Shown piece by piece: positions 44,761-60,847 of a DNA stretch of 64,000 nt; position 1 is the stretch's first letter; each line of letters begins with the position of its first letter. The stretch is from an archaeon. Its GTDB lineage: Archaea; Nanobdellota; Nanobdellia; Woesearchaeales; GCA-2686295. A program made the translations under genes and the position numbers. The stretch lies in contig JBDRCD010000003.1 of assembly GCA_043822105.1 (NCBI GenBank), positions 870-64,869 of the forward strand, given 5' to 3'. The notes under the pieces were generated by a model. It worked only from the letters and a program-made list of their open reading frames with translations. It was not told where the DNA came from and did no database searches.

Positions 44761-44761
44761 T

Positions 44762-45340
44762 TTACATGCTCAATATTTCATTTAAAGTTATATTTCTGTG
44801 GCGTATCTCTTCTGCTCTTCTTTTGTACTGCTCAAAAGGAACGCTGTACTCAGCTTCCTTGTCTGCCTCATTCCATCCTTGCTTGAATGCTTTAATGACA
44901 TTCCAATTGGTGTCTATATTATTGTTCAGATTGCTCTGCTTTACTGCTTGCCATCTATCAAAGTAGTCTTCCATCTTTTCCTTGTAAATCCTGAAAAGGA
45001 TATCTCTTGAATCTCTGTTATGTGGATTTATAAACAAAGATATCTTCAGCAGCTTCTCCTCTACTTCATCATTACCTTGACTTTCTGCGTTGGCCATAAT
45101 GTACTTTGAGAATCCTGAATCATGATAGAGCGTGGTTCTTCCTTGTTGGAGCAATTTCACTATTTTGACATATCGGTCAACTACTGAAGGAAAATCATCA
45201 GCAAGCAATTTATCTGCGATTGAATACTCCTCTTTTTGTATATGATATTTTATCTTTTGCTCTCTTGTCAGATTCTCATAACTAATTTCTCTCTTTCTGT
45301 TTTTGATTTTCTTTTCTATCCCGCCTGGTTCTGATATCAT
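44762..45340 (-). CDS. TPR-like protein, paralog 3, with the GGIEKKIKNR N-terminal motif
   Basis: MISEPGGIEKKIKNRKREISY... Confidence 0.6.
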   Translation of the reverse strand: MISEPGGIEKKIKNRKREISYENLTREQKIKYHIQKEEYSIADKLLADDFPSVVDRYVKIVKLLQQGRTTLYHDSGFSKYIMANAESQGNDEVEEKLLKISLFINPHNRDSRDILFRIYKEKMEDYFDRWQAVKQSNLNNNIDTNWNVIKAFKQGWNEADKEAEYSVPFEQYKRRAEEIRHRNITLNEILSM

Positions 45341-46251: not shown

Positions 46252-46252
46252 T

Positions 46253-47143: not shown

Positions 47144-48495
47144 GGCTTCACCTGATACTTTTCATAGAAATCTGCTTTTCCGCTTGTTATCTCATCAAGT
47201 GTGTATCTGGACTTTTTAGCATAGGCGCTGTCTTTTGCTCGTTCTCCCTGCTCAACTGTCATAGGTGGACCCCATAAGAATGCTTTCTCACAAATCATGT
47301 CTTCAGTGTTTTTAAAATCATTGGTAAGCACACTATTGAGAAGTTTATATTCATCTTCAGTAACTTTCTCGAATTGATTCATGGTATCTGTCGCTAACAA
47401 ATCCTTTTTTGGCATTGAAACGACATTTTTTTTCCTTCCCTGTTTGAGGAATGCATTATACGTGCTCACAATTTCAGCTATGGTCTCATGACTTATCAAA
47501 TTATAATTATTGTCTCCTCTGTATTTGTGAGTATTCTTTAGAATATCATCAAGCTTATTTTTCATTCTTAAAAATGTTTGATAATCTTCATTCTGATCAA
47601 CAGGCAAAGTCTTTGTCATCTTTGGTCCTTCACTTACATCTCTATAGAAGTCCTCTGTAGACTGGTAAGCAAAGTCTTCAAGATACTTTCCTTTTGGGAG
47701 TGTTTCAGGAGCCACTTTTGCGATGGCTCTCATCAAGATGTATTTAGTACCATCATCAACATCCAGTTTGTTGATTTCCTGCATTGCAAATTCAAAGTAG
47801 TCATATTTATCATCCCATAATGCATGAGGTGTTTGATGACTTGGATGCAATAACTGGAAGTACACAACTCCAATTGCAAATCTATCTGTCTGTGGTGTGA
47901 AAAGTTTTCCTTTTTGCTTTCCCGAGTTCTCCATTAGTTCGAAACTTCTATATCCTTCTGTGCTCTGATAACTGTATGTCATTTCTTCATTTGTTGCAGT
48001 ACCAAAATCAGATACCTTGTAGATTTTTCCTACACGAAGTATATTTGATGATTTTCCATCTCTGTGAAAAAGTCCCTTCTTATGTAAAGCTACATACCCT
48101 CTCAGTGTATGTCTTATTATTTTCTTTGCAGTTGCAGGGTCCATTACTTTTCCTTCTGTAATTAAATCATCAAGAATATCATCAACACTTTCATCTGCTT
48201 TCTCCATTAGAACTCCATAATATTTGCCAAATCTCAAAGGTTCATCGTCAAATATCCTTATTATATGTTCATGAGGTCCTACAATTCTTTTTACTCTGTA
48301 AGCTCTCTCACACTCTTCTTTTCCTGTTGGTCTTGTTGGAATCTTAAGAAAAAGTTCCATATTAGTGCTTGTTTCATAGACTTCTACAAGTGCTGTTCGA
48401 TTCCAGATGGTGATATCTATATCGTTTTTTGAGAATCTTTCACTCTTCTTGATAAGACTCCTGATATTCATTTCAAGCTTTCTTTTCGAACTCAC
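47131..48495 (-). CDS. Eukaryotic-like Ser/Thr protein kinase with a ~160-aa C-terminal extension
   Basis: Catalytic loop LFHRDGKSSNIL and SDFGTA (DFG). No clear Gly-rich loop. Confidence 0.75.
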   Translation of the reverse strand: MSSKRKLEMNIRSLIKKSERFSKNDIDITIWNRTALVEVYETSTNMELFLKIPTRPTGKEECERAYRVKRIVGPHEHIIRIFDDEPLRFGKYYGVLMEKADESVDDILDDLITEGKVMDPATAKKIIRHTLRGYVALHKKGLFHRDGKSSNILRVGKIYKVSDFGTATNEEMTYSYQSTEGYRSFELMENSGKQKGKLFTPQTDRFAIGVVYFQLLHPSHQTPHALWDDKYDYFEFAMQEINKLDVDDGTKYILMRAIAKVAPETLPKGKYLEDFAYQSTEDFYRDVSEGPKMTKTLPVDQNEDYQTFLRMKNKLDDILKNTHKYRGDNNYNLISHETIAEIVSTYNAFLKQGRKKNVVSMPKKDLLATDTMNQFEKVTEDEYKLLNSVLTNDFKNTEDMICEKAFLWGPPMTVEQGERAKDSAYAKKSRYTLDEITSGKADFYEKYQVKPWHK

Positions 48496-49379
48496 TTTGG
48501 AATCACCCCGTATAATAGTCCTGTTGCATTATCTCCTTTCATACTGTTCATGCTTACGTCATAGTCTTCTTTCTCCATTGTTTCTACTATCTTTTTTATC
48601 TCCACAGGATTGTTTATCCTGTCTATGAAGGTTTTTTCTATGTCTTCCAACCTGTTCGAACTGATAATATCAAGCATCTCTCTCTGTGTTACTGTCTTTG
48701 TGACTCCATCTGTGAATAGTCCAATTACCTGATTTTGTTTTGGTCTTATTTTATGCATATCAATTTTTAATCCAGAACCTTTTCCCAAATAACTTGTAAG
48801 TCCAAGTATTGAGCCTATTACTTGTTTTTTTGTAGGTGATAGCTTTTCTGCATATTCTGGGTAATGATGATGCTCATCTGTTACTTTTTCTACATATCTT
48901 TCTCCTTCCAAATTGAAAAGTGCAACCATTCCATCACCGACATGTGCTATGTAGCCTGTTTTTTTTGGAATAAAAAGGATGTCAATTGTGGTTCCTCCTT
49001 TATCCTCAAGAAAACTAACTTTTTTGTTTTCCATCATTGCATGTAGAGCATAGTTTGTATCGCTTATGGTTTCTTCAAGAATTGAAGGTATATTTTCTAA
49101 ACTCAGCTCTTTATTTTGAATATTTTCATAAGTTTCATTTAGTTCATTCACTATCATATCTACTGCGAACTTACTGCAGAATTTGCCACCTTCATATCCA
49201 CCCATTCCGTCTGCAACAACATAGATTCCTTTATCAACATCATAATAATAATTATCTTGATTTTCTTCTCTGTTTCCAATCTCAGAGAATGCAATGACAT
49301 GAGGAACTGCTTCTCGTTGTATAATTTTTGGTGTTCCCAACAATTCTATAATATTCTTTGCGTTTTTAATGAAGTTCAT
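48492..49379 (-). CDS. PP2C-family Ser/Thr phosphatase
   Basis: NQDNYY, VADGMGGYEGG, LFTDGV and GDNATGLL motifs. ATGA overlaps on both sides. Confidence 0.8.
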   Translation of the reverse strand: MNFIKNAKNIIELLGTPKIIQREAVPHVIAFSEIGNREENQDNYYYDVDKGIYVVADGMGGYEGGKFCSKFAVDMIVNELNETYENIQNKELSLENIPSILEETISDTNYALHAMMENKKVSFLEDKGGTTIDILFIPKKTGYIAHVGDGMVALFNLEGERYVEKVTDEHHHYPEYAEKLSPTKKQVIGSILGLTSYLGKGSGLKIDMHKIRPKQNQVIGLFTDGVTKTVTQREMLDIISSNRLEDIEKTFIDRINNPVEIKKIVETMEKEDYDVSMNSMKGDNATGLLYGVIPK

Positions 49380-51820
49380 TTTTTTATTACCTCTGCATCA
49401 AAAGTACTGAATTCTTTCATTCCTTCTACCTGTTCCATATGCATTTCTCCTTTTTCATGGAATATTGCATAGAGCTTATCTGGCTCTTGCGCTGCCATTA
49501 TGACATTCTTGTTAGGCATCCATATATTTGCATCTTGAAGATCAGAGTCTTTAAGTTCATAGTAGATAGAAGGCTTTTCTGCAAACAAATTCTTTTTGTT
49601 CTTGAAATTCTCTACTTTTATCCCTTCTTCAGTAAGGGTTGCTACTTGAAATCCTCTGTTGTCTATGTGAATAAAATCAAATGAATCATATCTTGTTTCA
49701 AATGATACTGGGTTAAACTTTCCTTCCAAGTCGACAGCTACAACGCCTTCTCCATTTTCGGTTGTGTAAAACAACACTTTTTCTATCTCAGAAGTTTTTT
49801 GTACAGCACCAATGTTTTCTTCTGAAGTGTAGATTTCTTCCATTATCTCATCGTCGAAAAGACTGACTTTGTTGTTGGAAGTTACTAGTATTTTTCCCTG
49901 ATAGGGTGTGAGTGAAATTATATCATCTTCAACTCTTTGGAGATCAAAGAATTCATTTGAGTCCCTGTTATACTTTGAGATGGTAGTCTCTCCATTTTCT
50001 TTTTTCAGGAAATAGATTTCATTATTGTTCACAACCATCTCTTCAAGCCTAAAATCAACATCCTCACTTGTTATAGGCTTTGACACATATGTAGGTGTTG
50101 AGTCATTGTTAATATCAAAAGTGAATATTCTGTACTCCATTGTCTTGTTACCATGTGGTCTTTCTGCGACAACAAATATTTCTTTATCAGATACTTTAAA
50201 TTCTCCGATTCCCATTTTTTGATGCTCTCTTTCTCTCCAGTCATATTCTCCTTCTTCTCGTGGGATACTTACTGTATATTCGAGAGCTCTGTGTATGAGA
50301 TTATTCTTTAATGGAGTACCCAGAATAACTCTTTTCTGTTCGCTAGAAGGTAGGTATATTTCTGTGTCGATTGATTTTGCGAGTTTTGTTTTTAGTTTCT
50401 CTTCTTTATTACCTATCAATTCTTTCACAATATTCTTTGCACCTTCAATTATCACTTCGACTAAAGTTTCTTGCTCTTTCTTTTCAGGTATTTCAGGTAA
50501 TCCATCTGTTCTTGGATTTAATTCTTGTATATATCCTTTTTCAGCGAGTAAACTTGTAAGCTCTTGAACTATTTTTGTTCCCTTTCTAAAGTCTTTTTCA
50601 CATTCAGAACTTAAACTCTCCATAATTGCTACTTCAGGAGTTATTACTGTTCCTCCTTTTATTTCAAAATTAAGTCCTGCAAAACCATTAAATTCTTTGT
50701 GATAAATGCTTCCTCTGAAAGTTTTTTCTGGTTTTTCTGAGACTATTGCAGCAGTCAATGGTAGAAGAGTATTTCTAATTGTGTCAATGGAAGTAACTTC
50801 ATTTTTTTCTTTGAAATCAATACCATATTTTTTGACTTTGTCTAATAATAGATTTCCTATGTTTTCACTTTCTTCACCAAAAATGACTTGAAATGAAATA
50901 CTTCCAAACTTAATTTTTGTGTATTCAAAGGCCATGAATTCTCCGTGACTTCCATATATTGGTGGAGATTCTATTTCTCCTTTGTATACTTCCCCTGTGA
51001 AATCAAAATAAACGTCCTTTATTGCAGTCTTTAATCTTGCGACATCCGTATCTGCAGGTCCTATTATTCTGTTTACAGGAATATCTGCTTCTGCGGCGAA
51101 TACATAATTTGTGATATCAATGTCATTAACTAAATTAACAACTGTTCCTTGATAGCCTTTCAGGACACTGCCTAAATGTTTTAATCCAACTATGTTTCCC
51201 GGGAGAAGATTGAATCTGCTTATGTTAATTCCTGTTTCTTGCTGGAATCCGGTTATTATGGCTTCCAAATCTAGACTTTGTTTCAGAGCTGTATTCAAAT
51301 AAATCAACGCGTCTTGATAACTTTTTGGATTGCCTTTTATGGTTGTTCTGATTTTATTAACTACTTCTTGTTTACTTAGATTTTCGAGATTTTTTGCAAT
51401 ATTTTTGAAATTATATCTTGAAAACAAAACTAACATATCTGATTCTTCGCTGTTGTCTTTTGCATTCTCTGTTATTTCAGTCAAATCCTCTATTTGCCAA
51501 AATCTCTTAAATTTGACTTTTTCTACTATTTTGTCATAATCTTTCCATTCTAAAGAATTGAAGTCATTGTGAAACTCTATTGCTGCATCTTCAACACTAT
51601 TTCTAATCCAAACATTGACTTGTTTTATATTGGAATCTGGTTCTAGAATTAATGGCTCTAATCCTCTGACATAGTTTTTTCCGATATTGCCATAGCCTAT
51701 GACGTTTATTGTGTAATCTCTCCAAGAATCCTTTGTCTGAGCAGTACCTCTTTTAACCTGTTTTTCAAGAAATTCTAAAAACTCCTTTCTTTCTGTTTTG
51801 TCTTCTTCTTCGGCTCCCAA
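49376..51820 (-). CDS. LDH/MDH-like Rossmann domain fused to a ~380-aa beta-rich (propeller-like) C-terminal domain
   Basis: INVIGYGNIGKNY, NLVNDIDITN...NRIIGPADTDVARLK and GSHGEFMAFEY parallel the LDH/MDH motifs (GxGxxG, NPVD...RVIG..T.LD..R, GEHG). TTG start. Confidence 0.55.
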   Translation of the reverse strand: MGAEEEDKTERKEFLEFLEKQVKRGTAQTKDSWRDYTINVIGYGNIGKNYVRGLEPLILEPDSNIKQVNVWIRNSVEDAAIEFHNDFNSLEWKDYDKIVEKVKFKRFWQIEDLTEITENAKDNSEESDMLVLFSRYNFKNIAKNLENLSKQEVVNKIRTTIKGNPKSYQDALIYLNTALKQSLDLEAIITGFQQETGINISRFNLLPGNIVGLKHLGSVLKGYQGTVVNLVNDIDITNYVFAAEADIPVNRIIGPADTDVARLKTAIKDVYFDFTGEVYKGEIESPPIYGSHGEFMAFEYTKIKFGSISFQVIFGEESENIGNLLLDKVKKYGIDFKEKNEVTSIDTIRNTLLPLTAAIVSEKPEKTFRGSIYHKEFNGFAGLNFEIKGGTVITPEVAIMESLSSECEKDFRKGTKIVQELTSLLAEKGYIQELNPRTDGLPEIPEKKEQETLVEVIIEGAKNIVKELIGNKEEKLKTKLAKSIDTEIYLPSSEQKRVILGTPLKNNLIHRALEYTVSIPREEGEYDWREREHQKMGIGEFKVSDKEIFVVAERPHGNKTMEYRIFTFDINNDSTPTYVSKPITSEDVDFRLEEMVVNNNEIYFLKKENGETTISKYNRDSNEFFDLQRVEDDIISLTPYQGKILVTSNNKVSLFDDEIMEEIYTSEENIGAVQKTSEIEKVLFYTTENGEGVVAVDLEGKFNPVSFETRYDSFDFIHIDNRGFQVATLTEEGIKVENFKNKKNLFAEKPSIYYELKDSDLQDANIWMPNKNVIMAAQEPDKLYAIFHEKGEMHMEQVEGMKEFSTFDAEVIKK

Positions 51821-51887: not shown

Positions 51888-54329
51888 TTAATCTACTCTT
51901 TGCCCTTCTAAAACAGCCATTAAGTCTATTTCATTCTCTAGAGAGTAAGCGCAGACCTGATTATCTTCAAAGAAGCAGTCTTTTGCACAGTATTTTCCTG
52001 TCTTTTTTTCCATCTCTTTCTTGATATCAAGTGATAACTGCAGGTCACCATTCATAATTCTTTCCTTAAATTCAACTGTTTTGTAAACTTCGTGCATGAC
52101 TTCACGTCTGTACCATTCGTGAGGTTCGATGATTGAAATCCCTTCATATTCTTGTTTTCTATAAGAATTTATATTGAGAAACTTTGGCTGATCTTCTTCA
52201 AAGTTAAGGAACTGGTCGTTGAAAGAGTTCTTATCCAGCATGACTATGATATTTCCTGTTTTATAGCCTTGTTCTTTCATGAATTTCTCAACCATCATTC
52301 CGTAGAATGTGACTTGTTTTTTGTAGTAAGTCTCCATTGTACTAATTTTTCTGTTTGTTTTTTTGTCGATAATAACTATATCATAAACATTATTATCATC
52401 TTTCAGAAAAAACAATGTATCTGGGTGAAAAGATATGGTAAAATCTTTATCTGTTATTGGATTATGTAGAGTATCTTCAAACAGTATCTCGCAGTAATGG
52501 TCAGAAGGAACCGGCTCGTCAACTCCCGGAATTAAGGTTAATGTCTCATAATGTACTAGTCCATCAAATGGTTGATAGGTAAGCTCATGTAATTTTGTAC
52601 CTCTGTGAGCTGCAATAGGTTCTCTTAGTATGTGGTCTAAAAATCTGTGAAACTCTCCTTCTCTACCCTTTTGTACAATTGGTTTTAGAATATCATAAGT
52701 ATCTAATCTCATTCCTCTGGCTATGACTCTTTGTCTAGCACAGTTGACATGTGCTGAAAGTTCAGAACCTCTGAAATCTGCCGAAAGATCCAGTTTCTCG
52801 GATTGTTCTGATAAGAAAGTTGCTTTCCTTCCAAAGAAATTCTCTGATTTCAAATCAAATATTGGTGTTTTTCCAGCAATGTATTCTTGCCATGGAATAA
52901 CTCTCTTATCTTCACTAGTTATATTGGCTTTTATGGTTCCTTCGAAGAACATTAGTTCGACAAGTCTAGGCTCAACTCTTATGTTACCTGAAGTTGTTCT
53001 TACCATGTATTTATTGACTATTTCAAGACCTCTTTTTGTTATGAATTTCGGAACAAGATCTGTCTGGTTAGGATGTCTTCCTTTTATGTTTTCTTCCAAT
53101 AGCACCCAAGGATATTCTTTTGATTGCTTGTATCTTATGATGTTTGCTTTTGGTACTTTTATTCTTGTATATTTCTTTGCATGATTTCCAGTCCATATCG
53201 ATTCGGCTGTCTGCAGAAATCCAGTAAGCTTATTTATTGCTATCCCAGAATGAATGCCGTGGGCTTCTTGTTTTCCTGAAAGAATGCCTTCGAATCCTCC
53301 AATGTACTGAATTGGAATGTTGAGGCCGGAAAACTTAATGGCCTGTTTTATTATGTCAGAAGAGGCGCTGGTCTTTTCCATGTATAGAGGCAGTCCTTCC
53401 AGGTCATAATTGTTAATCATGTTCTTTATACTTGGCTCCAGAATCTCAAGGTATTTTTTCCATTTTACGGCCATCACCATCTTTCCGAGTTTTACAAGTC
53501 GGGCATGATGTTTTACAAACTCATCAACAGTTGTTAGTTTAGGTCTGTACACATCTTTTTTGAAATCAGCAGGACTCTTTGTGACTGATTTTTTTATGGG
53601 CTTAACATCTAACAGCCTTTCCCGATACCTGAATGTGGGGATAGAATTATCAGCGGGCTTTGTCAGTGATCCTATGGCGACCGCTCCAACTTTCTCAATA
53701 ATTTCTTTATACTCATTATATAGTACTTCATCTTCCTTTAACTCATACAATGATAATCTTTTGAAATCATTATGAGCATACAAATTTTCGAAAGTATATT
53801 TTTTCAGATCTTCAGCCAGAATATCTTCCAGTTTTATATTTCCTTCATTATCTCTTTTAATCAGTGGAACAAAGGTCCATGGTTGCATGAACATCAGAAC
53901 TATTTTATCAAGAAATTCAGGATCGAGTGTTTTAGCGATATCCAGAAGAGAATTTGTGAATCTGAATTCAGGTGAATAAGGGTCCAATCCGTCCCTTAGG
54001 CCATGTTCATCGATACTCAAGCCATTGGTTGGTATTATTATTTTATCTTCAAAGAATTTTTGTTCATTTTTCAGTTTTTCATACAACTTTCTCTCTGCGA
54101 ACCTAAACTTTTTCATTCGCCCGATTACTTGGGGCTCGAATGCTTTTACAATAATCATTTCCAGCAGGTTTATCATCTCTGCATTTTCCTTTGGATCGGC
54201 AGCAAAGGTGTTTAGATATGGCAGGAAATCTATGGATGTCCAAATGTTTTCCTTATCAAAAACATCAGAAAGCATATTGAACAGTGTATACTGTTGTTTA
54301 ACTATGTGAATGTTGTCAACACTTGGCAT
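51888..54329 (-). CDS. Large protein: ~530-aa unknown N-terminal region plus a Cas4/RecB-like PD-(D/E)xK nuclease C-terminal domain with Cys residues suggestive of an Fe-S cluster
   Basis: LSAHVNCARQ (N-terminal Cys), GTKLHEL, ISFHPD, YDIVIIDKK (D/ExK), KQVTFY (QxxxY) and KYCAKDCFFEDNQVCAY (three C-terminal Cys). No P-loop seen. Confidence 0.55.
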   Translation of the reverse strand: MPSVDNIHIVKQQYTLFNMLSDVFDKENIWTSIDFLPYLNTFAADPKENAEMINLLEMIIVKAFEPQVIGRMKKFRFAERKLYEKLKNEQKFFEDKIIIPTNGLSIDEHGLRDGLDPYSPEFRFTNSLLDIAKTLDPEFLDKIVLMFMQPWTFVPLIKRDNEGNIKLEDILAEDLKKYTFENLYAHNDFKRLSLYELKEDEVLYNEYKEIIEKVGAVAIGSLTKPADNSIPTFRYRERLLDVKPIKKSVTKSPADFKKDVYRPKLTTVDEFVKHHARLVKLGKMVMAVKWKKYLEILEPSIKNMINNYDLEGLPLYMEKTSASSDIIKQAIKFSGLNIPIQYIGGFEGILSGKQEAHGIHSGIAINKLTGFLQTAESIWTGNHAKKYTRIKVPKANIIRYKQSKEYPWVLLEENIKGRHPNQTDLVPKFITKRGLEIVNKYMVRTTSGNIRVEPRLVELMFFEGTIKANITSEDKRVIPWQEYIAGKTPIFDLKSENFFGRKATFLSEQSEKLDLSADFRGSELSAHVNCARQRVIARGMRLDTYDILKPIVQKGREGEFHRFLDHILREPIAAHRGTKLHELTYQPFDGLVHYETLTLIPGVDEPVPSDHYCEILFEDTLHNPITDKDFTISFHPDTLFFLKDDNNVYDIVIIDKKTNRKISTMETYYKKQVTFYGMMVEKFMKEQGYKTGNIIVMLDKNSFNDQFLNFEEDQPKFLNINSYRKQEYEGISIIEPHEWYRREVMHEVYKTVEFKERIMNGDLQLSLDIKKEMEKKTGKYCAKDCFFEDNQVCAYSLENEIDLMAVLEGQRVD

Positions 54330-54381
54330 AACTACTTGAGAATAAGAAAAAGTATAAAAAGTTTGCCTTATTCTGCAAAAC
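54330..54381. promoter_or_regulatory. 52-bp divergent promoter region with an inverted repeat AGAATAAG-N19-CTTATTCT around a TATA-like gtataaaaag
   Basis: Inverted-repeat arms lie at 54340..54347 and 54367..54374. This is the only spacer between the two divergent operons. Confidence 0.6.
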
Positions 54382-57300
54382 GTGAAAGAGAATAATTCAT
54401 CAGAGGAGATTAGAGTAGTAACTCATTTAGCTACAGATAGAAGTTTGATTGGTTCTTTGAATTCTAATGTAAAGATTGCTTCTTGGGCTGTAGATACAGA
54501 AAATAACAGATTTGTTGATCCACGAACAGATGTTCTAAGCATACCTTTGAGATTTCCGACAGACCATTTTAAGGAGGAAGGTAGACCAGAAGCACAGGAT
54601 CTTATAAGAGCGAGAATTACTGAATTTAGAGACATGACAAAGAAGGATCTTCAGACAATAATTGACAAGAAGAATGCTATGCTTGAACAAAGAAATCCTG
54701 GAACAAAGGCTGCAAAGAAGATAGAAGATGAGATAAAAGAGATAAGAAAAGTACAATACAGAATTAATAGATTGATAAAAAGAGGTGAAACAGCGAGGAA
54801 TAAATACGGGGACTGGGTTTATGTTATTCAATCTCCTCACTTGAGCAATATTCAGCTGACGACAGTAAACGATCTTTATCATAACAATAAACACTACACC
54901 AAAACAACTGATCTCATAAAACTTGATGTTGGATTTCCATACAATGAAATGTTATTTGTAGATGGGAAGAGTAATACTATAGGGAAACACTTTGCAACAC
55001 TATCAGATAAAAAACACTACAATCTTGATACATTTGTCAACAGCTCTATGATGGCAAGCGATTTGGAAACAACCGAATGGCAAAAACTTATCTACTCTCC
55101 AGAAGACAAGCTGAAAAGCACTCTGGAACTGATAAAAGAGTACAAGCTTGCAGAGAATGAAGAGAATCTGACAGAACTTATGGAAAACACAAAGTCTCAG
55201 ATTCTTGAATTGGTGAGAAAGAAAAAAGATAGTGTAAGAGAAGAACAGATTGTTATTGGCACTATAGCTTATGCTGAGAATCCTCTCAAGTTTTGGCAGG
55301 AAAAGGACCTGTCGCAGTTAAAGACTTTCCTGATAACGGATATGCCTGTTGAAGATTCCCTTGATGTTGATATACCTTTAATTGGGGGAACCATAAACCC
55401 AGAGATATACAAAGTCAGCAACCATGAAGAAATAATGAAAGTCATGAGCGATATAACTCAGGAATACAATCCCTTCTCAATGACTGGGCATTTCTACTTT
55501 AAATTTGACAATGGAAAACCAGGGGAACTTGGTTTGGAATATAATACCGGAATAGATGGTGAAAAACCAGAATATCAATGGGGGTTGCTTAACAAATTTG
55601 TACAGATAAGAATTGCAAGAGGAAGGCTTGATCTTGACCCGGCGCTGTATTACCAACATTATGCTCCATGGACTGTGAATAATAAGCTAGATACTGTTTT
55701 TGAAGACCTAACAGGTGTGTTTGAGAAGAAAGAGATGACTCATACAGAGCTAGAGGAAAGAATACAGACAATACTTAAAGGGGGTATTTCCGAGAAAGAG
55801 AAACTTGAATTTGGAAGGCTTCTGCATAAGTATGCTGTAAGGGATTCAATAAAATCTCTGATAAATGGGGTGATTCTTCTTCCTGAAGTGGCTGCATTGT
55901 CTATGCTTTATAGGACTCCATTTCACAGAGTATGCTCAACTGACAAGAAAAGACTTTCTGAAGAATACTGGAATAAGAGAAGTCTGGAAGATACACTGAC
56001 TTTCCGTTATGAACATCCAAGGAATGAGAAACTTACTATGAGTTTTCAACTGTCAAAAACCTACAAGAAAGCAAAGTCTGGATTCATTGAATGGGAGGAT
56101 TTCAAGATATCGGATTGGCATGAAAGAATTTTAAAACACTACGGAAACTTTGGTAATTATAAAAAAGGATTCCAGAAAGCAAGGCTGATATATCTTCATC
56201 CTCATGTCAAAGCTCTCAAAGATTTCTTTGCTGATGATGAGAATGCCATGCGAATATTTAATTTGAATTTTGACGATAGAAAAAGCAGGATAAGAATGTA
56301 CAAAGGACTGGAAGCGATAGTAGAATATCCTTTGTTTAAACTATTGGATCTTTCAACTCAGAAACTTTACAATTATATGACTAACAATGGGCATCCAGAT
56401 TTGGAAGAGAAATTCAGCAGGGAATTTGGGCTTGATCTCACGGAATCCAACATAAGGAAGTATCATAATGATATAGTGAGATATTTCAGAAACATTGGTA
56501 AGGGCTTGAAGAATGAAGAAGTTCTCAACACCTACAAGAATTTCATACTGGTAAAAGAAAGCGATACTATAGATGATTTCTGCAATAGAATAGAGGAATT
56601 CAACTTTGGGACTGTTATGGGAAAGATGGATGCTATATCAATTGGAAACCATAAGTTTGGAGGAGTGATTGACGGCCAGATGATGAATTTTGGATTTTCA
56701 GACCCTAAATCCAATAAAGGCAAGAAGAATGAAGCTGCAAAAGAGATTCTCCAACTAGTTATGGACAAGGTATTGAGAGAGAAAGATTATGCTTCTGCAT
56801 TAAAGGCTGTTAGAGACATTTCTTGGGGGATACAGAACAGTATGATAGAAGAAGACGCTCTACAGTACAAGATAGAAGCGAAGAGGAATTTTTCAGAGTA
56901 TTCTTCAGCGGCTACGCTATGGGCAAAAGATGAATATGTTAAGAGGAGAATAAAGAAGGGAGAGATTATGATATACCATGCAGACACTAATGAACTGCTT
57001 GCAGATATGCTAGGAATCGCAGTTGATTTCTCGTCTGGACAGCCAATGTATTTTTCTACAGATAATGGCAAAAATATGCTAGAGAAAGATTTTGAAGATG
57101 AGTTGGAAGATAACTATAAGATGAAAAAGAAAGGCAAAATAAGAGAGTTGGTAGAATGCGTTGTGCCAACGACTCTAAAGCAATACCCTATTCTTTTTGA
57201 AGAGATGTCGGACATGGAGTTTGACTATGATGAACAGATAAGAGAACAGCAGGTAATGAACAGGGTTATATGTGGTGTAGCCACCGATGAACATATAGAT

Positions 57301-57405
57301 ATGCTGGTGAAACTATACAAAAAAATATCTCTTAATTATGAGCCTCCGAAGAAACAACCCAAACAAAAAATAGAGAATCCTGCTCAGATAACCATTGGTT
57401 TCTAA
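54382..57405 (+). CDS. Highly diverged family-B DNA polymerase-like protein. Exonuclease motifs are present. Canonical polymerase motifs are not recognisable.
   Basis: MASDLETTEW (Exo I, DxE), FYFKFDNG (Exo II-like), KYAVRDSIKSL (Exo III, YxxxD) and LLPEVAALSMLYRTPFHRV (like ...ELSRLSG...). In the motif A, B and C positions I find LIYLHPHV, YKGLEAIVEYPLF and VKESDTIDDF. GTG start. Confidence 0.6.
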   Translation: MKENNSSEEIRVVTHLATDRSLIGSLNSNVKIASWAVDTENNRFVDPRTDVLSIPLRFPTDHFKEEGRPEAQDLIRARITEFRDMTKKDLQTIIDKKNAMLEQRNPGTKAAKKIEDEIKEIRKVQYRINRLIKRGETARNKYGDWVYVIQSPHLSNIQLTTVNDLYHNNKHYTKTTDLIKLDVGFPYNEMLFVDGKSNTIGKHFATLSDKKHYNLDTFVNSSMMASDLETTEWQKLIYSPEDKLKSTLELIKEYKLAENEENLTELMENTKSQILELVRKKKDSVREEQIVIGTIAYAENPLKFWQEKDLSQLKTFLITDMPVEDSLDVDIPLIGGTINPEIYKVSNHEEIMKVMSDITQEYNPFSMTGHFYFKFDNGKPGELGLEYNTGIDGEKPEYQWGLLNKFVQIRIARGRLDLDPALYYQHYAPWTVNNKLDTVFEDLTGVFEKKEMTHTELEERIQTILKGGISEKEKLEFGRLLHKYAVRDSIKSLINGVILLPEVAALSMLYRTPFHRVCSTDKKRLSEEYWNKRSLEDTLTFRYEHPRNEKLTMSFQLSKTYKKAKSGFIEWEDFKISDWHERILKHYGNFGNYKKGFQKARLIYLHPHVKALKDFFADDENAMRIFNLNFDDRKSRIRMYKGLEAIVEYPLFKLLDLSTQKLYNYMTNNGHPDLEEKFSREFGLDLTESNIRKYHNDIVRYFRNIGKGLKNEEVLNTYKNFILVKESDTIDDFCNRIEEFNFGTVMGKMDAISIGNHKFGGVIDGQMMNFGFSDPKSNKGKKNEAAKEILQLVMDKVLREKDYASALKAVRDISWGIQNSMIEEDALQYKIEAKRNFSEYSSAATLWAKDEYVKRRIKKGEIMIYHADTNELLADMLGIAVDFSSGQPMYFSTDNGKNMLEKDFEDELEDNYKMKKKGKIRELVECVVPTTLKQYPILFEEMSDMEFDYDEQIREQQVMNRVICGVATDEHIDMLVKLYKKISLNYEPPKKQPKQKIENPAQITIGF

Positions 57406-57445
57406 TCTCGCAAAACATATAAACCATTGAATTTTACAATTGCTC

Positions 57446-59512
57446 ATGATTATAAATTCTCTCAAGCTGAAAAACATCCGTTCCTACAAAAAAGAAGAAA
57501 TAGTTTTTCCAGAAGGGTCAATAATGCTTTCAGGTGACATTGGTGCCGGGAAAACAACAATTCTTTTATCCATAGAGTTTGCTCTTTTTGGCATAATGAG
57601 GGGACAGCTAACAGGCGGAAGTCTTCTGAGGCATGGTACAAGTGAAGGATACGTTGAGCTGACATTTACCATCGACGATAAAAAAATAGTCATTAAAAGA
57701 TATCTTAAGAGAAAAAATAAAACCGTTGCACAGGATTCAGGTCACATTATTATTGGCGAAGAAAAATATGAACTGACACCCGTTGAGTTGAAGTCAAAAA
57801 TACTTGAACTGATAGGCTACCCAGACGAGCTTCTGACAAAGTCAAAATCTCTAATATTCAGATACACAGTTTACACGCCTCAGGAGGAGATGAAGCAGAT
57901 ACTTCTGGAAAGTCAGGACGAAAGACTTGAAGTTATCAGAAGGATATTCAACATTGATAAATACAAGCGCATAAAAGACAACACTTTGAATTATCTCAAG
58001 CATTTGAGAATAAAAAAAACTGAGTTTGAAACCAGAATTGAAGACTTGGAAGAGAAAAAGAAAGAGTATTCCAACTACAATGAAAAAATAAAGACCATAA
58101 AAGAAGAAGCTGCAAAAATACAGCTTTTGATTGATGATATTACAAAGAAATTCAATGAACAGCAGTCAAAGGTTAAAGTTCATGAAGAAAAGATAAAAGA
58201 AATAGAATCATTGAAAGGACAGATTGAAATCAAAACCAGCAACATCAGCAACAACAAAACAAATGTCAAAAACAGTGATCAAGAACTGAAAGAACTCAAC
58301 AGTGCAATTCTCAAACTGGATGAAGAACTGAAAGACGTGACAATGATTGACATAAAAAAGCTGAAAAAGCAAAGAGAAGAGTTAGTTAAAGAAAAAGAGA
58401 AACTGTCCGACAACCTTGAAAAAATAAGAGATAGGGAAGCAGAGTTCACAGCAAAAAAGAACAGCTCCAAAGAAATCATGAAAAAACTACTGTCACTCGA
58501 CAAATGTCCTGTCTGCGAACAGATGGTTGATTCTAATCACAAAAAACACGTCAATGAAAGAGAAAATAAAAACATTGTCAATGTTGAAGAACAGCTATTA
58601 AAACTCCAGGATTTGAAAAGAAAGCGAAAAAGTGCTCTTGATGAACTGGAAAAAAAGATAGGTGACCTGACAAACAACATCAACAGGAACGAGCTGATAT
58701 CCATAAAAAAAGAACAGCTTGACAGCAACATAAAAGAAAAAGAACAGATAATGAAGGATCAGATTCTCACAAAGTCCGTCATTGAAAAAGAAGAACAGGA
58801 CGTAATTGACATAAAAAAACAGTTGGAATCACACAGGGACATTGAAAAGATATATTTACAGGAAAAACAGACATTGGAATTGATAAGATCCCAGAAACAG
58901 TCACAGGACATAAGAAGGGCAGAGCAGCTTCGGGAAGTAAAAACTTTGGAAGAAGTAAAACTGAGAGTCAAAGAGGAGATAAACAAAAAAGAAGAGTCAA
59001 AGAAAAGTCTGGTCTATGTCAACGAAGTGCAGAACTGGATACACAAGTTTTTCATGAACGTAATCTACATGATGGAAAAACAAATCATGCTGACAATCTA
59101 TCAGGAATTCAACGAGTATTTTCAGGAATGGTTCAATATTCTAATTGAGGAAGAGACCCTCAATGTGAGGCTTGACGAGACATTCACACCTCTGATAGAA
59201 CAGAACGGCTATGACACATACATTGCAAATCTTTCAGGCGGAGAAAGAACCTCAGTTGCACTGGCCTACAGACTGGCGCTGAACAAAGTTATCAACGATT
59301 TCATGGGACTTATAAAAACAAAGGACCTGCTGATACTGGATGAGCCGACAGACGGATTCTCATCTGACCAGCTGGACAAGATAAGGGATCTTTTGGAGAT
59401 AATAAACATCAGACAGGTAATCCTTGTTAGCCATGAGCCAAAGCTAGAAAGCTACGTTGATCATATTCTAAGAATACATAAAAAAGAACATCTAAGCAAA
59501 GTAATTGCTTGA
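57446..59512 (+). CDS. Rad50/SbcC-like SMC ATPase with a short coiled coil and a CxxC zinc hook
   Basis: GDIGAGKTT (Walker A), YTPQEEM (Q-loop), LDKCPVCEQ (hook), LSGGERTSVALAYRLAL (signature), LLILDEPTDGF (Walker B), ILVSHEP. Confidence 0.8.
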   Translation: MIINSLKLKNIRSYKKEEIVFPEGSIMLSGDIGAGKTTILLSIEFALFGIMRGQLTGGSLLRHGTSEGYVELTFTIDDKKIVIKRYLKRKNKTVAQDSGHIIIGEEKYELTPVELKSKILELIGYPDELLTKSKSLIFRYTVYTPQEEMKQILLESQDERLEVIRRIFNIDKYKRIKDNTLNYLKHLRIKKTEFETRIEDLEEKKKEYSNYNEKIKTIKEEAAKIQLLIDDITKKFNEQQSKVKVHEEKIKEIESLKGQIEIKTSNISNNKTNVKNSDQELKELNSAILKLDEELKDVTMIDIKKLKKQREELVKEKEKLSDNLEKIRDREAEFTAKKNSSKEIMKKLLSLDKCPVCEQMVDSNHKKHVNERENKNIVNVEEQLLKLQDLKRKRKSALDELEKKIGDLTNNINRNELISIKKEQLDSNIKEKEQIMKDQILTKSVIEKEEQDVIDIKKQLESHRDIEKIYLQEKQTLELIRSQKQSQDIRRAEQLREVKTLEEVKLRVKEEINKKEESKKSLVYVNEVQNWIHKFFMNVIYMMEKQIMLTIYQEFNEYFQEWFNILIEEETLNVRLDETFTPLIEQNGYDTYIANLSGGERTSVALAYRLALNKVINDFMGLIKTKDLLILDEPTDGFSSDQLDKIRDLLEIINIRQVILVSHEPKLESYVDHILRIHKKEHLSKVIA

Positions 59513-59857
59513 TTAATCCTGCTTTGGTGTGAACAGCACAAAAGATCCTTCATTATGCTGAGAATTGTTGTCATGAGACAGGATATCATATTCTTTGATA
59601 ATTGCTTGCTTTTCCATATTTGAGATATAGTTCAGAATAGTTGTTTCAACACCATATTTGGCTGCAATATCCTTTGAATCACCTGTAAGGCTGATCGTCC
59701 AAGTATCTCTTGCTATAGAAATCATGTTGGATGGATTTACAAACTGCAGATTTATTCCTGCGGCTCCGTCAACAGCAATATTTGAAATAGAATAGACTTC
59801 CTGTTTTTCATAGTTGTCGATTAACTCTCTTATTGCTTTTCCTATATTATCTTGCAT
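59513..59857 (-). CDS. Hypothetical protein, convergent with and abutting the Rad50-like gene
   Basis: ORF track only. Confidence 0.4.
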   Translation of the reverse strand: MQDNIGKAIRELIDNYEKQEVYSISNIAVDGAAGINLQFVNPSNMISIARDTWTISLTGDSKDIAAKYGVETTILNYISNMEKQAIIKEYDILSHDNNSQHNEGSFVLFTPKQD

Positions 59858-59923: not shown

Positions 59924-60847
59924 ATGGCAGAATTTCCAAAGCTAAAAAACAAGGCAATTCTAAGTCCGATGGCTGGTGTGACTGACGTTGCATTTAGAGC
60001 TCTCGCTAGAAAATATGGTGCAGGTTTGACCTATACGGAGTTTGTAAGCAGCGCAGCAATTGTCAGAGGCAACAAGACAAGCCTTCGGATGCTTGACACT
60101 GACCCTTCTGAAAAACCGGTTGCTGTTCAGCTTTTTGGAAGCAATGTAACAGAGGTTGTTGAAGCTGCAAAACTATTGGAAAAAAGATTTGATGTTATTG
60201 ACATAAACTGCGGTTGTCCGGCCTGGAAAGTTATAAAGACAGGTGCGGGAAGCGAGATGCTGAAGGAGCCGAAAGGCGTTGCAAAGCTTGTCAGTAAACT
60301 AACATCTGTGGTTAGTAAGCCAATAACAATCAAGATACGAATTGGAATCGATGAAAAGAATATCAATGCGGTTGAAGTTGCAAAGGCAGCTGAGAAGGCC
60401 GGTGCAGCAGCAATAGCGGTTCACGGCAGAACACAGGTTCAGGGCTACAGCGCAGAGGCCGACTGGAAAATAATAAAGCAGGTAAAGAAAGCAGTTAGCA
60501 TTCCTGTGATTGGAAACGGAGACGTTGACAGTCCTGAAGTTTTCAAGAAACGACTGGAAGAAAGCGGAGTTGACTACATAATGATTGCCAGAGCAGCAAT
60601 GACAAACCCCTACATTTTCAAGCAGATAAATGATTTTGTGAAAATAGGAAAATACAATAAAAAAAGTAAGGAAGAACAGTTTCTGGAGTATTTAGAGTTT
60701 GCAGAGAAGTACAAAATACCCTATCCTGCTGTGAGACACCACGCAATAAAGTTTTCAAGAGGAATTGTGGGCGGTGCAAAACAAAGGCAGGAAATGCTAA
60801 AATGCAAGACGACGGTTGATTTAAAGTCAACATTTCAAAAGCTTTAA
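59924..60847 (+). CDS. dus: tRNA-dihydrouridine synthase
   Basis: LSPMAGVTDVAFR, DINCGCP and HGRT motifs of Dus TIM-barrel flavoenzymes. Confidence 0.85.
   Translation: MAEFPKLKNKAILSPMAGVTDVAFRALARKYGAGLTYTEFVSSAAIVRGNKTSLRMLDTDPSEKPVAVQLFGSNVTEVVEAAKLLEKRFDVIDINCGCPAWKVIKTGAGSEMLKEPKGVAKLVSKLTSVVSKPITIKIRIGIDEKNINAVEVAKAAEKAGAAAIAVHGRTQVQGYSAEADWKIIKQVKKAVSIPVIGNGDVDSPEVFKKRLEESGVDYIMIARAAMTNPYIFKQINDFVKIGKYNKKSKEEQFLEYLEFAEKYKIPYPAVRHHAIKFSRGIVGGAKQRQEMLKCKTTVDLKSTFQKL

What the first reader, a model, noticed from the sequence alone, without database searches (positions are those of the whole stretch)
54382..59512. PolB-like protein with exonuclease but no canonical polymerase signatures, operonic with a Rad50-like ATPase in place of Mre11
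**PolB-like protein**
- Exo I (DLE), Exo II-like (FKFD) and Exo III (YAVRD) are readable.
- The region after Exo III aligns by eye with the ...ELSRLSG... segment of archaeal PolB.
- Later segments parallel the palm and thumb: HKFGGVIDGQMMNFGF against KKRYAGLI.
- At the positions of DxxSLYPS, KxxxNSxYG and YxDTDS I find LIYLHPHV, YKGLEAIVEYPLF and VKESDTIDDF.
- This suggests an inactivated polymerase that retains a 3-prime to 5-prime exonuclease.

**Rad50-like partner**
- The next gene, 40 nt downstream, is a complete Rad50/SbcC-type ATPase.
- Its coiled coil is shorter than I expect for archaeal Rad50.
- Rad50 normally pairs with the Mre11 nuclease, and none is present here.
- An exonuclease-only PolB relic acting as the nuclease partner of a Rad50-like clamp would be a new arrangement.
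Basis: partly seen in the sequence, partly recalled or inferred. Interest (0 to 1): 0.75.

Follow-up and report, generated by a model that had tools for sequence, protein, structure and literature searches.

The report
Polymerase-dead PolB with nuclease partner
A small-genome (DPANN, Woesearchaeota-like) archaeon encodes a family-B DNA polymerase look-alike that keeps its proofreading exonuclease but has lost the polymerase active site. Its constant genomic partner is not the neighbouring Rad50 but a divergently transcribed ~800-residue protein with a probable Cas4-like nuclease domain, a pairing I could not find described.

Summary
The 1007-aa ORF (54382-57405) is a real, full-length family-B DNA polymerase homologue. 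A family profile hits archaeal PolB structures at E=1e-16, hhalign to Pfu PolB gives 97% probability, and the AlphaFold model (pLDDT 88) matches only PolBs in Foldseek.

It belongs to an unannotated family of about 60 clusters, the named members from Woesearchaeota. The Exo I/II/III residues (D227, E229, D376, Y484, D488) are invariant in 34/34 members. The polymerase motifs are gone: motif C Asp is replaced by Asn716, motif B Lys/Asn by Glu644/Glu648, and the motif A Asp is deleted or unconserved.

The Rad50 idea does not hold. The 690-aa neighbour is this lineage's ordinary short Rad50, with an invariant CPxC hook. Its more distant orthologues sit directly downstream of mre11 (40/80 loci), and none of 80 Rad50 loci carries the PolB-like gene. 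Most PolB-like loci lack Rad50, and the window's rad50 has its own TATA box.

The conserved partner (10/11 loci) is the divergent 813-aa gene (51888-54329). It carries RecB/Cas4-type motifs plus four invariant cysteines and shares a ~52-nt intergenic region with one central TATA box. I propose a two-nuclease DNA-end-processing module; that function is inferred, not shown.

The parts
51888..54329 (-). 'Partner X', 813 aa. The N-terminal ~520 aa have no recognisable family. The C-terminal ~290 aa carry RecB/Cas4-type PD-(D/E)xK motifs (HPD637, D650, D655-x-K657, Q672xxxY676) plus four invariant Cys (C530, C781, C785, C793).
   Evidence: A homologue is adjacent to the PolB-like gene in 10/11 distinct loci. 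Invariant residues are from alignment A4. There is one weak hit to PHROG 1706 'CRISPR/Cas system associated', E=6e-4, residues 573-706. No Pfam, NCBIfam or PDB sequence hit.
54330..54381 (.). 52-nt divergent intergenic region with one central TATA-like box (TATAAAAA, 54353-54360), about 22-28 nt from either start codon. It is a putative shared bidirectional promoter.
   Evidence: The spacer is 52-56 nt in 7 of the 9 head-to-head loci, each with a central TTTAAAAA/TTTATAAAT-type box. Promoter function is inferred, not shown.
54382..57405 (+). PolB-like protein, 1007 aa. It has the full family-B polymerase fold, an intact DEDDy exonuclease site and a degenerate polymerase site.
55024..55881 (+). 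3'-5' exonuclease domain (about residues 215-500). Exo I D227/E229 is at 55060-55068, Exo II D376 at 55507-55509, and Exo III Y484/D488 at 55831-55845.
   Evidence: These residues are invariant in 34/34 members. The domain aligns to Pfu D215, Y311 and D315. It is the most conserved part of the protein.
56167..56214 (+). Structural equivalent of motif A (strand 596-605 plus helix 607-611: GFQKARLIYLHPHVKA). The catalytic Asp is missing.
   Evidence: AF2 secondary structure. Local hhalign to Pfu EKGLWENIVYLDFRALYPS shows a 4-residue gap over LDFR. Position 604 is A/Y/E/S/D. The full hhalign instead pairs D573 with Pfu D405, and D573 is Asp in only 18/34 members.
56287..56340 (+). Finger-helix equivalent of motif B (K/R636-x-R638...L-E644-xxx-E648-Y-P-L-F). 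Pfu K487 and N491 are replaced by Glu/Glu.
56521..56556 (+). Beta-hairpin equivalent of motif C (VLNTYKNFILVK). Pfu D541 aligns to N716 (Asn in 31/34). Pfu D543 aligns to position 718 (N/S/Y/H).
56614..57021 (+). Thumb domain (about residues 745-880), the second most conserved region. It includes the G771-I-A-D774-xx-S-N-K-G780 segment.
   Evidence: The profile matches PolB thumb residues 601-682 and the Pol delta thumb.
57417..57423 (+). TATA-like box (ATATAAA) in the 40-nt gap, about 26 nt upstream of the rad50 ATG. It is a putative independent rad50 promoter.
   Evidence: Function is inferred.
57440..59512 (+). Short archaeal Rad50. The ORF is 690 aa from TTG 57440; the likely true start is ATG 57446. 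Walker A is at about 57530-57559. The zinc hook C356-P-V-C359 is at 58505-58516. I regard it as a neighbour, not part of the PolB-like module.

Best explanation
The 1007-aa protein belongs to a previously unannotated family of family-B DNA polymerase paralogues; every member with a source name or taxon comes from Woesearchaeota. The family keeps the whole PolB architecture (N-terminal, exonuclease, palm, fingers, thumb). Selection has kept the DEDDy 3'-5' exonuclease site and the DNA-binding thumb, while the polymerase catalytic residues have been lost. I read it as a PolB locked into 'editing' function: it binds a primer-template or 3' end through the palm/thumb scaffold and trims the 3' strand, but cannot add nucleotides.

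It works with 'partner X', the gene transcribed divergently from a shared ~52-nt promoter region. Partner X has a C-terminal domain that looks like a Cas4/AddB/Dna2-type iron-sulfur PD-(D/E)xK nuclease. Together they would form a two-nuclease DNA-processing module acting on both strands of a DNA end or fork, for repair, resection or flap/fork processing.

The downstream Rad50 is the lineage's ordinary Rad50, with its own promoter. In this sub-clade mre11 has become unlinked or lost, and Rad50's position next to the PolB-like gene is local synteny.

What is shown: homology, fold, motif status, gene linkage, non-linkage with Rad50. What is inferred: exonuclease activity, loss of polymerase activity, the nuclease nature of partner X, physical interaction, biological role.
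For: **PolB homology**
- Exhaustive HMMER found 63 representative relatives.
- The family profile hits archaeal PolB structures at E=1.3e-16, in two colinear stretches covering the exonuclease and the thumb.
- hhalign to Pfu PolB gives probability 97.1%, E=5.6e-11, over 474 columns. The Pfu sequence was verified as 100% identical to 3a2f_A.
- The AF2 model has pLDDT 88.2 and pTM 0.89.
- The listed top 50 Foldseek matches in PDB and in BFVD are all family-B polymerases, best E=2e-19, about 950 aligned columns.

**Exonuclease kept, polymerase lost**
- D227, E229, D376, Y484 and D488 are invariant in 34/34 members.
- No acidic residue is conserved at the motif A or C positions. N716 (31/34) replaces the first motif C Asp. 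E644 and E648 replace motif B Lys and Asn.
- 13/53 members hit Pfam DNA_pol_B_exo1 and 0/53 hit DNA_pol_B.
- Conservation is highest in the exonuclease domain and thumb and lower across palm and fingers.

**Partner X linkage**
- A homologue is adjacent in 10/11 distinct loci: nine divergent and one tandem in a distant member.
- The genomic context outside the pair differs between loci.
- The spacer is about 52 nt with one central TATA-like box.
- There is one weak Cas4-like PHROG hit.

**Rad50 is ordinary and unlinked**
-.
Against: - No biochemical data exist for any member.
- Partner X's nuclease assignment rests on motif order, invariant residues and one weak profile hit (E=6e-4, 1 of 7 members).
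- The Cys spacing (C-x2/3-C-x7-C) differs from Cas4's C-x2-C-x5-C, which I quote from general knowledge.
- One family member (L095, 751 aa) has no detectable partner X nearby.
- Some PolBs stay active with atypical motif C. Primer-independent PolBs lack the first Asp (PMC7544198), so loss of polymerase activity is likely but not proven.
- D573, a possible motif A Asp, is present in the window's protein and in 18/34 members.
- The biological role is conjecture.
Confidence: 0.6

Rival explanations
1. One reading: the exonuclease-only PolB relic replaces Mre11 as the nuclease partner of the adjacent Rad50-like ATPase, and the two are expressed as an operon.
For: - The genes are on the same strand with a 34-40 nt gap.
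- No Mre11 is found in the window or in L001-L010.
- The ~21 closest Rad50 relatives also lack an adjacent mre11.
Against: - None of 80 Rad50-orthologue loci has the PolB-like gene or partner X.
- 8 of 10 distinct PolB-like loci with downstream sequence have no Rad50.
- In the only other linked case, L001, a 332-aa gene lies between them.
- rad50 has its own TATA-like box, as do its unlinked closest relatives.
- The same Rad50 family pairs with a bona fide Mre11 in 40/80 loci.
Confidence: 0.04
2. The PolB-like protein is a non-catalytic structural or regulatory subunit, like the inactivated C-terminal half of Pol epsilon or archaeal PolB2. It would scaffold the replisome or a repair complex, and the exonuclease would not be its main function.
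For: - Inactivated PolB paralogues with presumed scaffold roles are known (PMC4104785, PMC2669801, PMC7544198).
- The polymerase motifs are lost.
- The gene sits among housekeeping genes.
Against: - All five DEDDy catalytic residues are invariant across 34 members at about 19-32% identity to the window protein (apart from one 50% relative), and the exonuclease domain is the most conserved region.
- Known scaffold-type inactivated PolBs (PolB2, Pol epsilon C-terminal half) have also lost the exonuclease centre (PMC4104785).
Confidence: 0.12
3. The pair is an anti-virus defence or mobile-element-derived module, in which a nuclease pair degrades foreign DNA, rather than a housekeeping repair or replication factor.
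For: - Solo Cas4-family genes are common in DPANN and sometimes sit in defence contexts (PMC5704561).
- The two-gene module appears in varying genomic contexts.
- Sequences diverge quickly, to about 19-32% identity to the window protein.
Against: - No PADLOC hit for either protein.
- No integrase, Cas1, terminal repeats or other MGE genes appear in the neighbourhood gene tables. The neighbours include translation and tRNA genes.
- GC content is uniform.
- There is conserved synteny with Cbf5/HTH in the window and L001, and between L004 and L096.
Confidence: 0.12
4. It is still an active DNA polymerase that uses a non-canonical catalytic centre, for example D573 plus E644/E648.
For: - The full PolB fold with fingers and thumb is retained.
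- D573 aligns to Pfu D405 in the full hhalign.
- Conserved basic residues K/R636 and R638 remain in the finger helix.
- B2 and primer-independent PolBs act with atypical motif C (PMC7544198).
Against: - No acidic residue in the palm is invariant. D573 is Asp in 18/34, and E644 and E648 are each Glu in 24/34.
- Both motif C Asp positions are non-acidic, with N716 in 31/34.
- The motif B Lys that contacts the dNTP is replaced by Glu.
- Palm and fingers are markedly less conserved than the exonuclease domain and thumb.
Confidence: 0.05

Closest known systems
Archaeal replicative family-B DNA polymerase (PolB3; Pfu, KOD, Tgo, 9°N structures)
   Same: - Same overall fold and domain order.
- Best sequence-profile and structural matches.
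- Exo I/II/III DEDDy residues are identical in position.
- The thumb segment is recognisably similar.
   Different: - Motif A Asp is deleted or unconserved.
- Motif B K/N is replaced by E/E.
- Motif C DTD is replaced by N-x-(N/S/Y).
- No Pfam DNA_pol_B match.
- Extra helical insertions: a long hairpin at residues 65-126 and helices at 240-284.
- A constant partner gene.
PolB2, the inactivated archaeal family-B polymerases (Rogozin 2008; Makarova 2014, PMC4104785)
   Same: An archaeal PolB paralogue with a disrupted polymerase centre, presumed to act in repair or regulation as part of a conserved gene module.
   Different: - In most PolB2 members both the exonuclease and polymerase centres are disrupted. 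Here the exonuclease centre is strictly conserved.
- PolB2 is linked to arCOG07300 and an inactivated RadA. This family is linked to an ~800-aa protein with a Cas4-like domain.
C-terminal inactivated PolB module of eukaryotic Pol epsilon (PMC2669801)
   Same: A PolB fold retained without polymerase catalysis, so a precedent for a new use of the scaffold.
   Different: The Pol epsilon C-terminal half has also lost its exonuclease, is fused to an active PolB, and has a scaffold role. This protein is stand-alone with an intact exonuclease site.
Cas4 / AddB / Dna2 family: RecB-type PD-(D/E)xK nucleases with a 4Fe-4S cluster (PMC5704561)
   Same: Partner X's C-terminal domain has the same motif order (D...DxK...QxxxY) flanked by 1+3 invariant cysteines. 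Solo Cas4-like genes are common in DPANN.
   Different: - No significant Pfam or NCBIfam match.
- Different Cys spacing.
- Large insertions.
- A ~520-aa N-terminal region of unknown fold.
- Fixed pairing with a PolB-like gene.
Two-nuclease end-processing machines (AddAB, RecBCD; archaeal Mre11-Rad50 with HerA-NurA)
   Same: The analogy is functional only: two nucleases of presumably opposite polarity encoded together.
   Different: No helicase or ATPase motor is encoded in the pair, the proteins are not homologous as complexes, and no activity has been shown.
Archaeal Mre11-Rad50
   Same: The 690-aa neighbour has all Rad50 hallmarks. Its orthologues sit directly downstream of mre11 in 40/80 loci.
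   Different: It is about 200 aa shorter than Pyrococcus or Sulfolobus Rad50 because of a shorter coiled coil, a trait of this whole metagenomic family (all matched genes about 680-715 aa). In the window's sub-clade mre11 is not adjacent.

Membership tests
Family-B DNA polymerase superfamily (homology / fold) | Colinear N-terminal, exonuclease, palm, fingers and thumb architecture. | tested here: met
   hhalign probability 97.1% over 474 columns. The listed top 50 Foldseek matches in PDB are all PolBs, E down to 2e-19, about 950 aligned columns.
Family-B DNA polymerase superfamily (homology / fold) | Exo I (DxE), Exo II (NxxxFD) and Exo III (YxxxD) motifs. | tested here: met
   D227/E229, GH(N)xxxFD376 and Y484xxxD488 are invariant in 34/34 members. 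They align to Pfu D215, Y311 and D315.
Active family-B DNA polymerase (enzyme) | Motif A DxxSLYPS with the catalytic Asp. | tested here: not met
   Either the Asp is deleted (local hhalign; AF2 strand 596-605) or it maps to D573, which is Asp in only 18/34 members.
Active family-B DNA polymerase (enzyme) | Motif B KxxxNSxYG (dNTP binding). | tested here: not met
   The aligned positions are E644 and E648, within L-E-xxx-E-Y-P-L-F.
Active family-B DNA polymerase (enzyme) | Motif C YxDTDS with catalytic Asp residues. | tested here: not met
   N716 (31/34) and position 718 (N/S/Y/H/K) align to Pfu D541 and D543.
Active family-B DNA polymerase (enzyme) | Match to the Pfam DNA_pol_B (PF00136) polymerase-domain model. 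| tested here: not met
   0 of 53 members match at E<=0.01, while 13/53 match DNA_pol_B_exo1.
PolB2 inactivated archaeal polymerases | Both exonuclease and polymerase catalytic centres disrupted. | tested here: not met
   The exonuclease centre is invariant. The PolB2 definition is from PMC4104785.
PolB2 inactivated archaeal polymerases | Operon with arCOG07300 (~90 aa) and an inactivated RadA. | tested here: inconclusive
   No RadA-like Pfam hit appears in any neighbourhood table. arCOG07300 cannot be recognised with these tools. The conserved neighbour is partner X instead.
Rad50 (Mre11-Rad50 complex ATPase) | ABC-ATPase head motifs: Walker A, signature LSGGE, Walker B, H-loop. | tested here: met
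   Invariant in 77/77 family members. PDB Rad50 hits at E~1e-20. NCBIfam Rad50 models are the top hits but score below their curated cut-offs.
Rad50 (Mre11-Rad50 complex ATPase) | CxxC zinc hook at the apex of the coiled coil. | tested here: met
   C356-P-x-C359-x-Q is invariant in 77/77.
Rad50 (Mre11-Rad50 complex ATPase) | Partnership or linkage with Mre11. | tested here: inconclusive
   Not adjacent in the window or in the ~21 closest relatives. Adjacent in 40/80 orthologous loci. The rest of the genome could not be searched.
Cas4 / RecB-family Fe-S PD-(D/E)xK nuclease (partner X C-terminal domain) | Catalytic motifs D...(D/E)xK and QxxxY in the canonical order. | tested here: met
   HPD637, D650, D655-x-K657 and Q672xxxY676 are invariant in 7/7 members. 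The same pattern appears in the distant L093 homologue. The basis is sequence inspection.
Cas4 / RecB-family Fe-S PD-(D/E)xK nuclease (partner X C-terminal domain) | Four cluster-binding cysteines: one N-terminal and three C-terminal to the core. | tested here: met
   C530, C781, C785 and C793 are invariant. The spacing C-x2/3-C-x7-C differs from the canonical C-x2-C-x5-C.
Cas4 / RecB-family Fe-S PD-(D/E)xK nuclease (partner X C-terminal domain) | Statistically significant profile or structural match to the family. | tested here: inconclusive
   Only PHROG 1706 at E=6e-4, for 1/7 members. Pfam, NCBIfam, PADLOC and the PDB profile search gave nothing.
Lamassu LmuB-type defence SMC | SMC-like ATPase encoded with LmuA effector and LmuC genes. 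| tested here: not met
   The PADLOC LmuB model scores 1e-32. The neighbours are not Lamassu genes, and the family pairs with Mre11 and has a Rad50 hook.

The most novel reading that the evidence does not exclude
The PolB-like exonuclease and partner X form a previously unrecognised two-nuclease DNA-processing complex specific to this DPANN lineage. A family-B polymerase has been converted into a dedicated, template-guided 3'-5' exonuclease and coupled to an Fe-S Cas4/Dna2-like nuclease. The complex would take over an end-resection, trans-proofreading or fork/flap-processing role for which these reduced genomes lack the classical enzymes.
Probability: 0.3. Interest if true: 0.75.

Novelty: new variant of a known kind. 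Interest (0 to 1): 0.6.

Why it matters
Inactivated PolB paralogues are recurring but poorly understood players: PolB2, the C-terminal half of Pol epsilon, poxvirus F12. In the PolB2 and Pol epsilon C-terminal cases, which I checked in the literature, the exonuclease is lost as well.

This family shows the reverse pattern. The exonuclease site and thumb are under strict conservation and the polymerase centre has decayed. That would be a natural 'editing-only' PolB and a new route by which replicative polymerases are reused.

Its near-obligatory linkage to a large protein with a probable Fe-S nuclease domain points to an undescribed DNA-processing module in DPANN archaea, whose replication and repair systems are largely unexplored.

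The family is currently annotated as 'hypothetical protein', or wrongly as 'RNA-binding protein Jag'. It is not mentioned in the main text of the main PolB survey (PMC7544198), as far as my term search shows.

The work also shows that a ~685-aa Rad50 is the normal form across this large metagenomic family, and that mre11-rad50 linkage is absent in one sub-clade of it.

Tried and rejected
- **Single-sequence searches of the 1007-aa protein.** Pfam, NCBIfam, PADLOC, PHROGs and PDB gave no hits. The word-indexed homologue search found only one relative. The family appeared only with the exhaustive HMMER search.
- **AlphaFold with a 2-sequence alignment.** It failed (pLDDT 31). It succeeded with 53 sequences.
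- **My last homologue search.** I used a Thermococcus PolB fragment to collect PolBs for a profile-profile comparison. It returned only short fragments. I used the Pfu sequence instead, after verifying it against PDB 3a2f_A.
- **Firmer support for partner X's nuclease domain.** The PDB profile search, Pfam, PHROGs and NCBIfam on all 7 members, tblastn against phages and a regex hunt for solo Cas4 genes in the fetched loci all added nothing.
- **Rad50-like protein as a Lamassu LmuB or ASRP.** Rejected because of the invariant zinc hook and the Mre11 linkage of its orthologues.
- **Metallophos gene near the PolB-like gene in L096 as a possible Mre11.** Rejected. It does not match the Mre11 HMM and starts with a hydrophobic N-terminal segment.
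- **An MGE or provirus context for the window.** Rejected, given uniform GC and housekeeping neighbours.

Full report
**What is at the coordinates**

The window is AT-rich (about 35% GC). It carries archaeal housekeeping genes: deoxyhypusine synthase, Arg- and Glu-tRNA synthetases, Cbf5-type pseudouridine synthase and Dus.

- ORF 54382-57405 (+) encodes 1007 aa.
- ORF 57440-59512 (+) encodes 690 aa.
- Immediately upstream and divergent lies an 813-aa ORF, 51888-54329 (-).
- The closest relative of the locus is a Candidatus Woesearchaeota MAG (JABMPT010000012). Other family members that carry names are also labelled Woesearchaeota.

**The PolB-like protein is a real PolB homologue**

- As a single sequence it matches nothing in Pfam, NCBIfam, PADLOC, PHROGs or PDB.
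- The word-indexed search found one relative, at 48% identity.
- An exhaustive HMMER search with the two-sequence profile found 63 cluster representatives, 39 of them at E<=1e-10. Most are 750-1060 aa long.
- A profile of 34 full-length members (A3) hits archaeal family-B polymerase structures at E=1.3e-16. There are two colinear stretches: Exo II/III plus the start of the palm (PolB 184-378), and the thumb (PolB 601-682). Pol delta thumbs also match, at E~7e-8.
- hhalign of A3 against Pfu PolB gives 97.1% probability, E=5.6e-11, over 474 columns (residues 344-865 against Pfu 183-702).
- AlphaFold with 53 family sequences gives pLDDT 88.2 and pTM 0.89.
- In Foldseek the listed top 50 matches in PDB are all family-B polymerases, aligned over about 950 columns with best E=2e-19. 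The same holds for the listed top 50 viral predicted structures.

**Exonuclease kept, polymerase lost**

- Exonuclease site:
  - In A3 the invariant residues are D227 and E229 (Exo I), E288, D376 (Exo II), G414, K450, and Y484 and D488 (Exo III).
  - hhalign places D376, Y484 and D488 on Pfu D215, Y311 and D315.
- Motif C. It maps to the beta-hairpin 714-725. Pfu D541 aligns with N716, which is Asn in 31/34 members. Pfu D543 aligns with position 718, which is N/S/Y/H/K.
- Motif B. KxxxN maps to E644 and E648, each Glu in 24/34 members, within a conserved L-E-xxx-E-Y-P-L-F.
- Motif A. There are two candidate alignments, and neither gives a conserved Asp.
  - The full hhalign pairs Pfu D405 with D573, which is Asp in 18/34, Glu in 5, and N, K or A in 9.
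  - The AF2 strand 596-605 plus helix 607-611, together with a local hhalign, pair KKG596...F-P607 with Pfu EKGLWENIVYLDFRALYPS. That alignment has a 4-residue deletion that removes LDFR.
- Pfam. None of 53 members matches the Pfam polymerase-domain model, while 13 match the PolB exonuclease model.
- Conservation by region. The share of columns at >=70% identity is 17% in the exonuclease domain, 16% in the thumb and 7% in palm and fingers. From general knowledge, canonical PolBs are best conserved at palm motifs A, B and C, so this is the reverse pattern.

Its motif A placement is one of the two candidates. Its motif C placement was about 10 residues too far downstream: DTIDD lies in the following helix and is not conserved. 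The conclusion is unaffected.

**The Rad50 neighbour**

- The 690-aa protein has AAA_23 and SbcC Walker B domains. Its best NCBIfam hits are Rad50 models, though they score below the curated cut-offs. It matches PDB Rad50 chains at E~1e-20.
- A metagenome scan found more than 466 relatives. The 80 best (36-59% identity) are nearly all full-length matches of about 680-715 aa.
- In 77 aligned members the C-P-x-C hook, Walker A, LSGGE, Walker B and H-loop are invariant.
- Clustering the neighbours showed a ~393-aa family immediately upstream in 40/80 loci. It is Mre11: Metallophos E=2.6e-12, and PDB Mre11 1ii7 at E=1.7e-20.
- Mre11 linkage tracks similarity. The ~21 closest relatives of the window's Rad50 have no Mre11 in their flanks. 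Most of the more distant ones do; several of the exceptions have the gene at the very start of the contig.
- No Mre11 was found by six-frame HMM search in the window or in L001-L010.
- None of the 80 Rad50 loci contains a PolB-like gene or partner X.
- The 40-nt gap before the window's rad50 contains AAAACATATAAACC about 26 nt upstream of the ATG. The closest relatives, which have unrelated upstream genes, carry a similar TATA-like element at about the same distance. The mre11-linked orthologues lack it.

I conclude that this is the lineage's ordinary, short Rad50, transcribed on its own. Its position after the PolB-like gene is local synteny, shared only with L001, where an extra 332-aa gene is interposed.

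**The real partner**

I examined 11 distinct PolB-like loci: the window, L001, L004, L005-7, L008, L009, L010, L091/92, L093/94, L095 and L096.

- Ten have a homologue of the window's 813-aa protein adjacent, with E values from 1e-19 to 0.
- Nine of these are head-to-head. One distant member (L093) has it upstream in tandem. One member (L095, 751 aa) has none detectable.
- The surrounding genes differ between lineages: Cbf5/HTH; EF-1alpha/S10; eIF2gamma/S6e; Lon/FtsZ; RFC. The pair is therefore what is conserved.
- In 7 of the 9 head-to-head loci the spacer is 52-56 nt, with a single central TTTAAAAA/TTTATAAAT-type box about 22-28 nt from each start codon. I read this as one shared bidirectional TATA element; that is an inference.
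- Partner X has no Pfam, NCBIfam, PADLOC or PDB sequence match.
- Its C-terminal ~290 residues contain, invariant in 7/7 members: C530, RGTxxH581, H593-Y594, Y612-x-E614, H635-P-D637, D650, D655-x-K657, Q672-xxx-Y676, and C781, C785, C793. From general knowledge, this is the motif order of RecB/Cas4/AddB/Dna2-type PD-(D/E)xK nucleases with a four-cysteine iron-sulfur cluster.
- The only statistical support is a weak PHROG 'CRISPR/Cas system associated' hit, E=6e-4.
- The N-terminal ~520 residues are of unknown type.

**Mechanism (inferred)**

The PolB scaffold with its conserved thumb would bind duplex or primer-template DNA and feed the 3' end to the intact DEDDy site, with no possibility of synthesis. 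Partner X would supply a second nuclease, probably Fe-S dependent. The two genes look co-expressed from a shared promoter region.

A two-nuclease machine acting on DNA ends, gaps, flaps or stalled forks is the simplest reading. I put about 0.85 on the identity and linkage statements and about 0.4 on this functional model.

They are weighed in the Rival explanations section.

**Comparison with what is known**

- The closest structures are archaeal PolB3 enzymes.
- The closest concept is the inactivated PolB2 family. [quoted passage not shown]
- The large PolB survey (PMC7544198) lists B7 and B9 for Woesearchaeota. A term search of its main text found no family of this kind.
- The Cas4 phylogenomics paper notes abundant solo Cas4 in DPANN, but its main text does not mention polymerases (PMC5704561).
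- Public annotations for family members are 'hypothetical protein' or 'predicted RNA-binding protein Jag'.

I therefore classify it as a new variant of a known kind: an inactivated PolB paralogue that retains its exonuclease and has a new partner.

**Limits**

- There is no biochemistry for any member.
- The rest of the genome could not be searched for mre11, canonical PolB or PolD.
- No phylogeny of the family against named PolB groups was made.

Noticed in passing
window 44116-47143 (-), continuing to 51820: Four tandem paralogous ORFs (214, 192, 304 and 296 aa) each begin with a (G)GIEKKIK(N/D)R motif. The two that were scanned have TPR repeats. On the same strand they are followed by a Ser/Thr kinase (47131-48495), a PP2C phosphatase (48492-49379) and an 814-aa protein with a weak LDH/MDH-like segment (49376-51820). 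This looks like a signalling cluster just downstream of partner X. It is not present at the corresponding place in L001.
   Followed up: partly
window 19977-20954 (-): A 325-aa protein has an SLT_2 lytic transglycosylase domain (E=6.9e-21) in an archaeal, DPANN-type genome. It may be a murein-degrading enzyme.
   Followed up: no
window 59513-59857 (-); L001 16220-16585 (-): A small ORF (114 and 121 aa) lies convergent with rad50 at the same position in both loci. It has no family assignment apart from a very weak PADLOC PD_DExK hit (E=0.01). Homology between the two copies was not tested.
   Followed up: no
L001 13102-14100 (+): The closest relative has an extra 332-aa gene with no Pfam hit inserted between the PolB-like gene and rad50. 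The window instead has a Dus gene (59924-60847) that L001 lacks. So there is small-scale gene turnover around an otherwise syntenic block.
   Followed up: partly
L011-L090 (rad50 loci): This large metagenomic Rad50 family, presumably DPANN, is uniformly about 685 aa. Members fall into an mre11-linked group and a group without adjacent mre11. The second group is monocistronic-looking, with a TATA-like box about 25-30 nt upstream of the ATG.
   Followed up: partly
L093 131-6100 (+); L095 8001-10256 (+): Distant PolB-like members differ in organisation. L093 (1064 aa) has partner X (897 aa) upstream on the same strand. L095 (751 aa) has no detectable partner X; two uncharacterised ORFs (415 and 200 aa) lie upstream instead.
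   Followed up: partly
L005 519-3689 (+) / L006 566-3736 (+): A 1056-aa Cys-rich protein with no Pfam hit sits next to partner X in the P0006 loci. It was not seen in the other loci.
   Followed up: no
one search hits (P0071, P0072, P0076): Fragments nearly identical to Thermococcus/Pyrococcus PolB are deposited under bacterial names (Acinetobacter baumannii, Brevibacillus laterosporus, Raoultella planticola). They probably come from contamination of sequencing libraries by commercial polymerase expression constructs.
   Followed up: no
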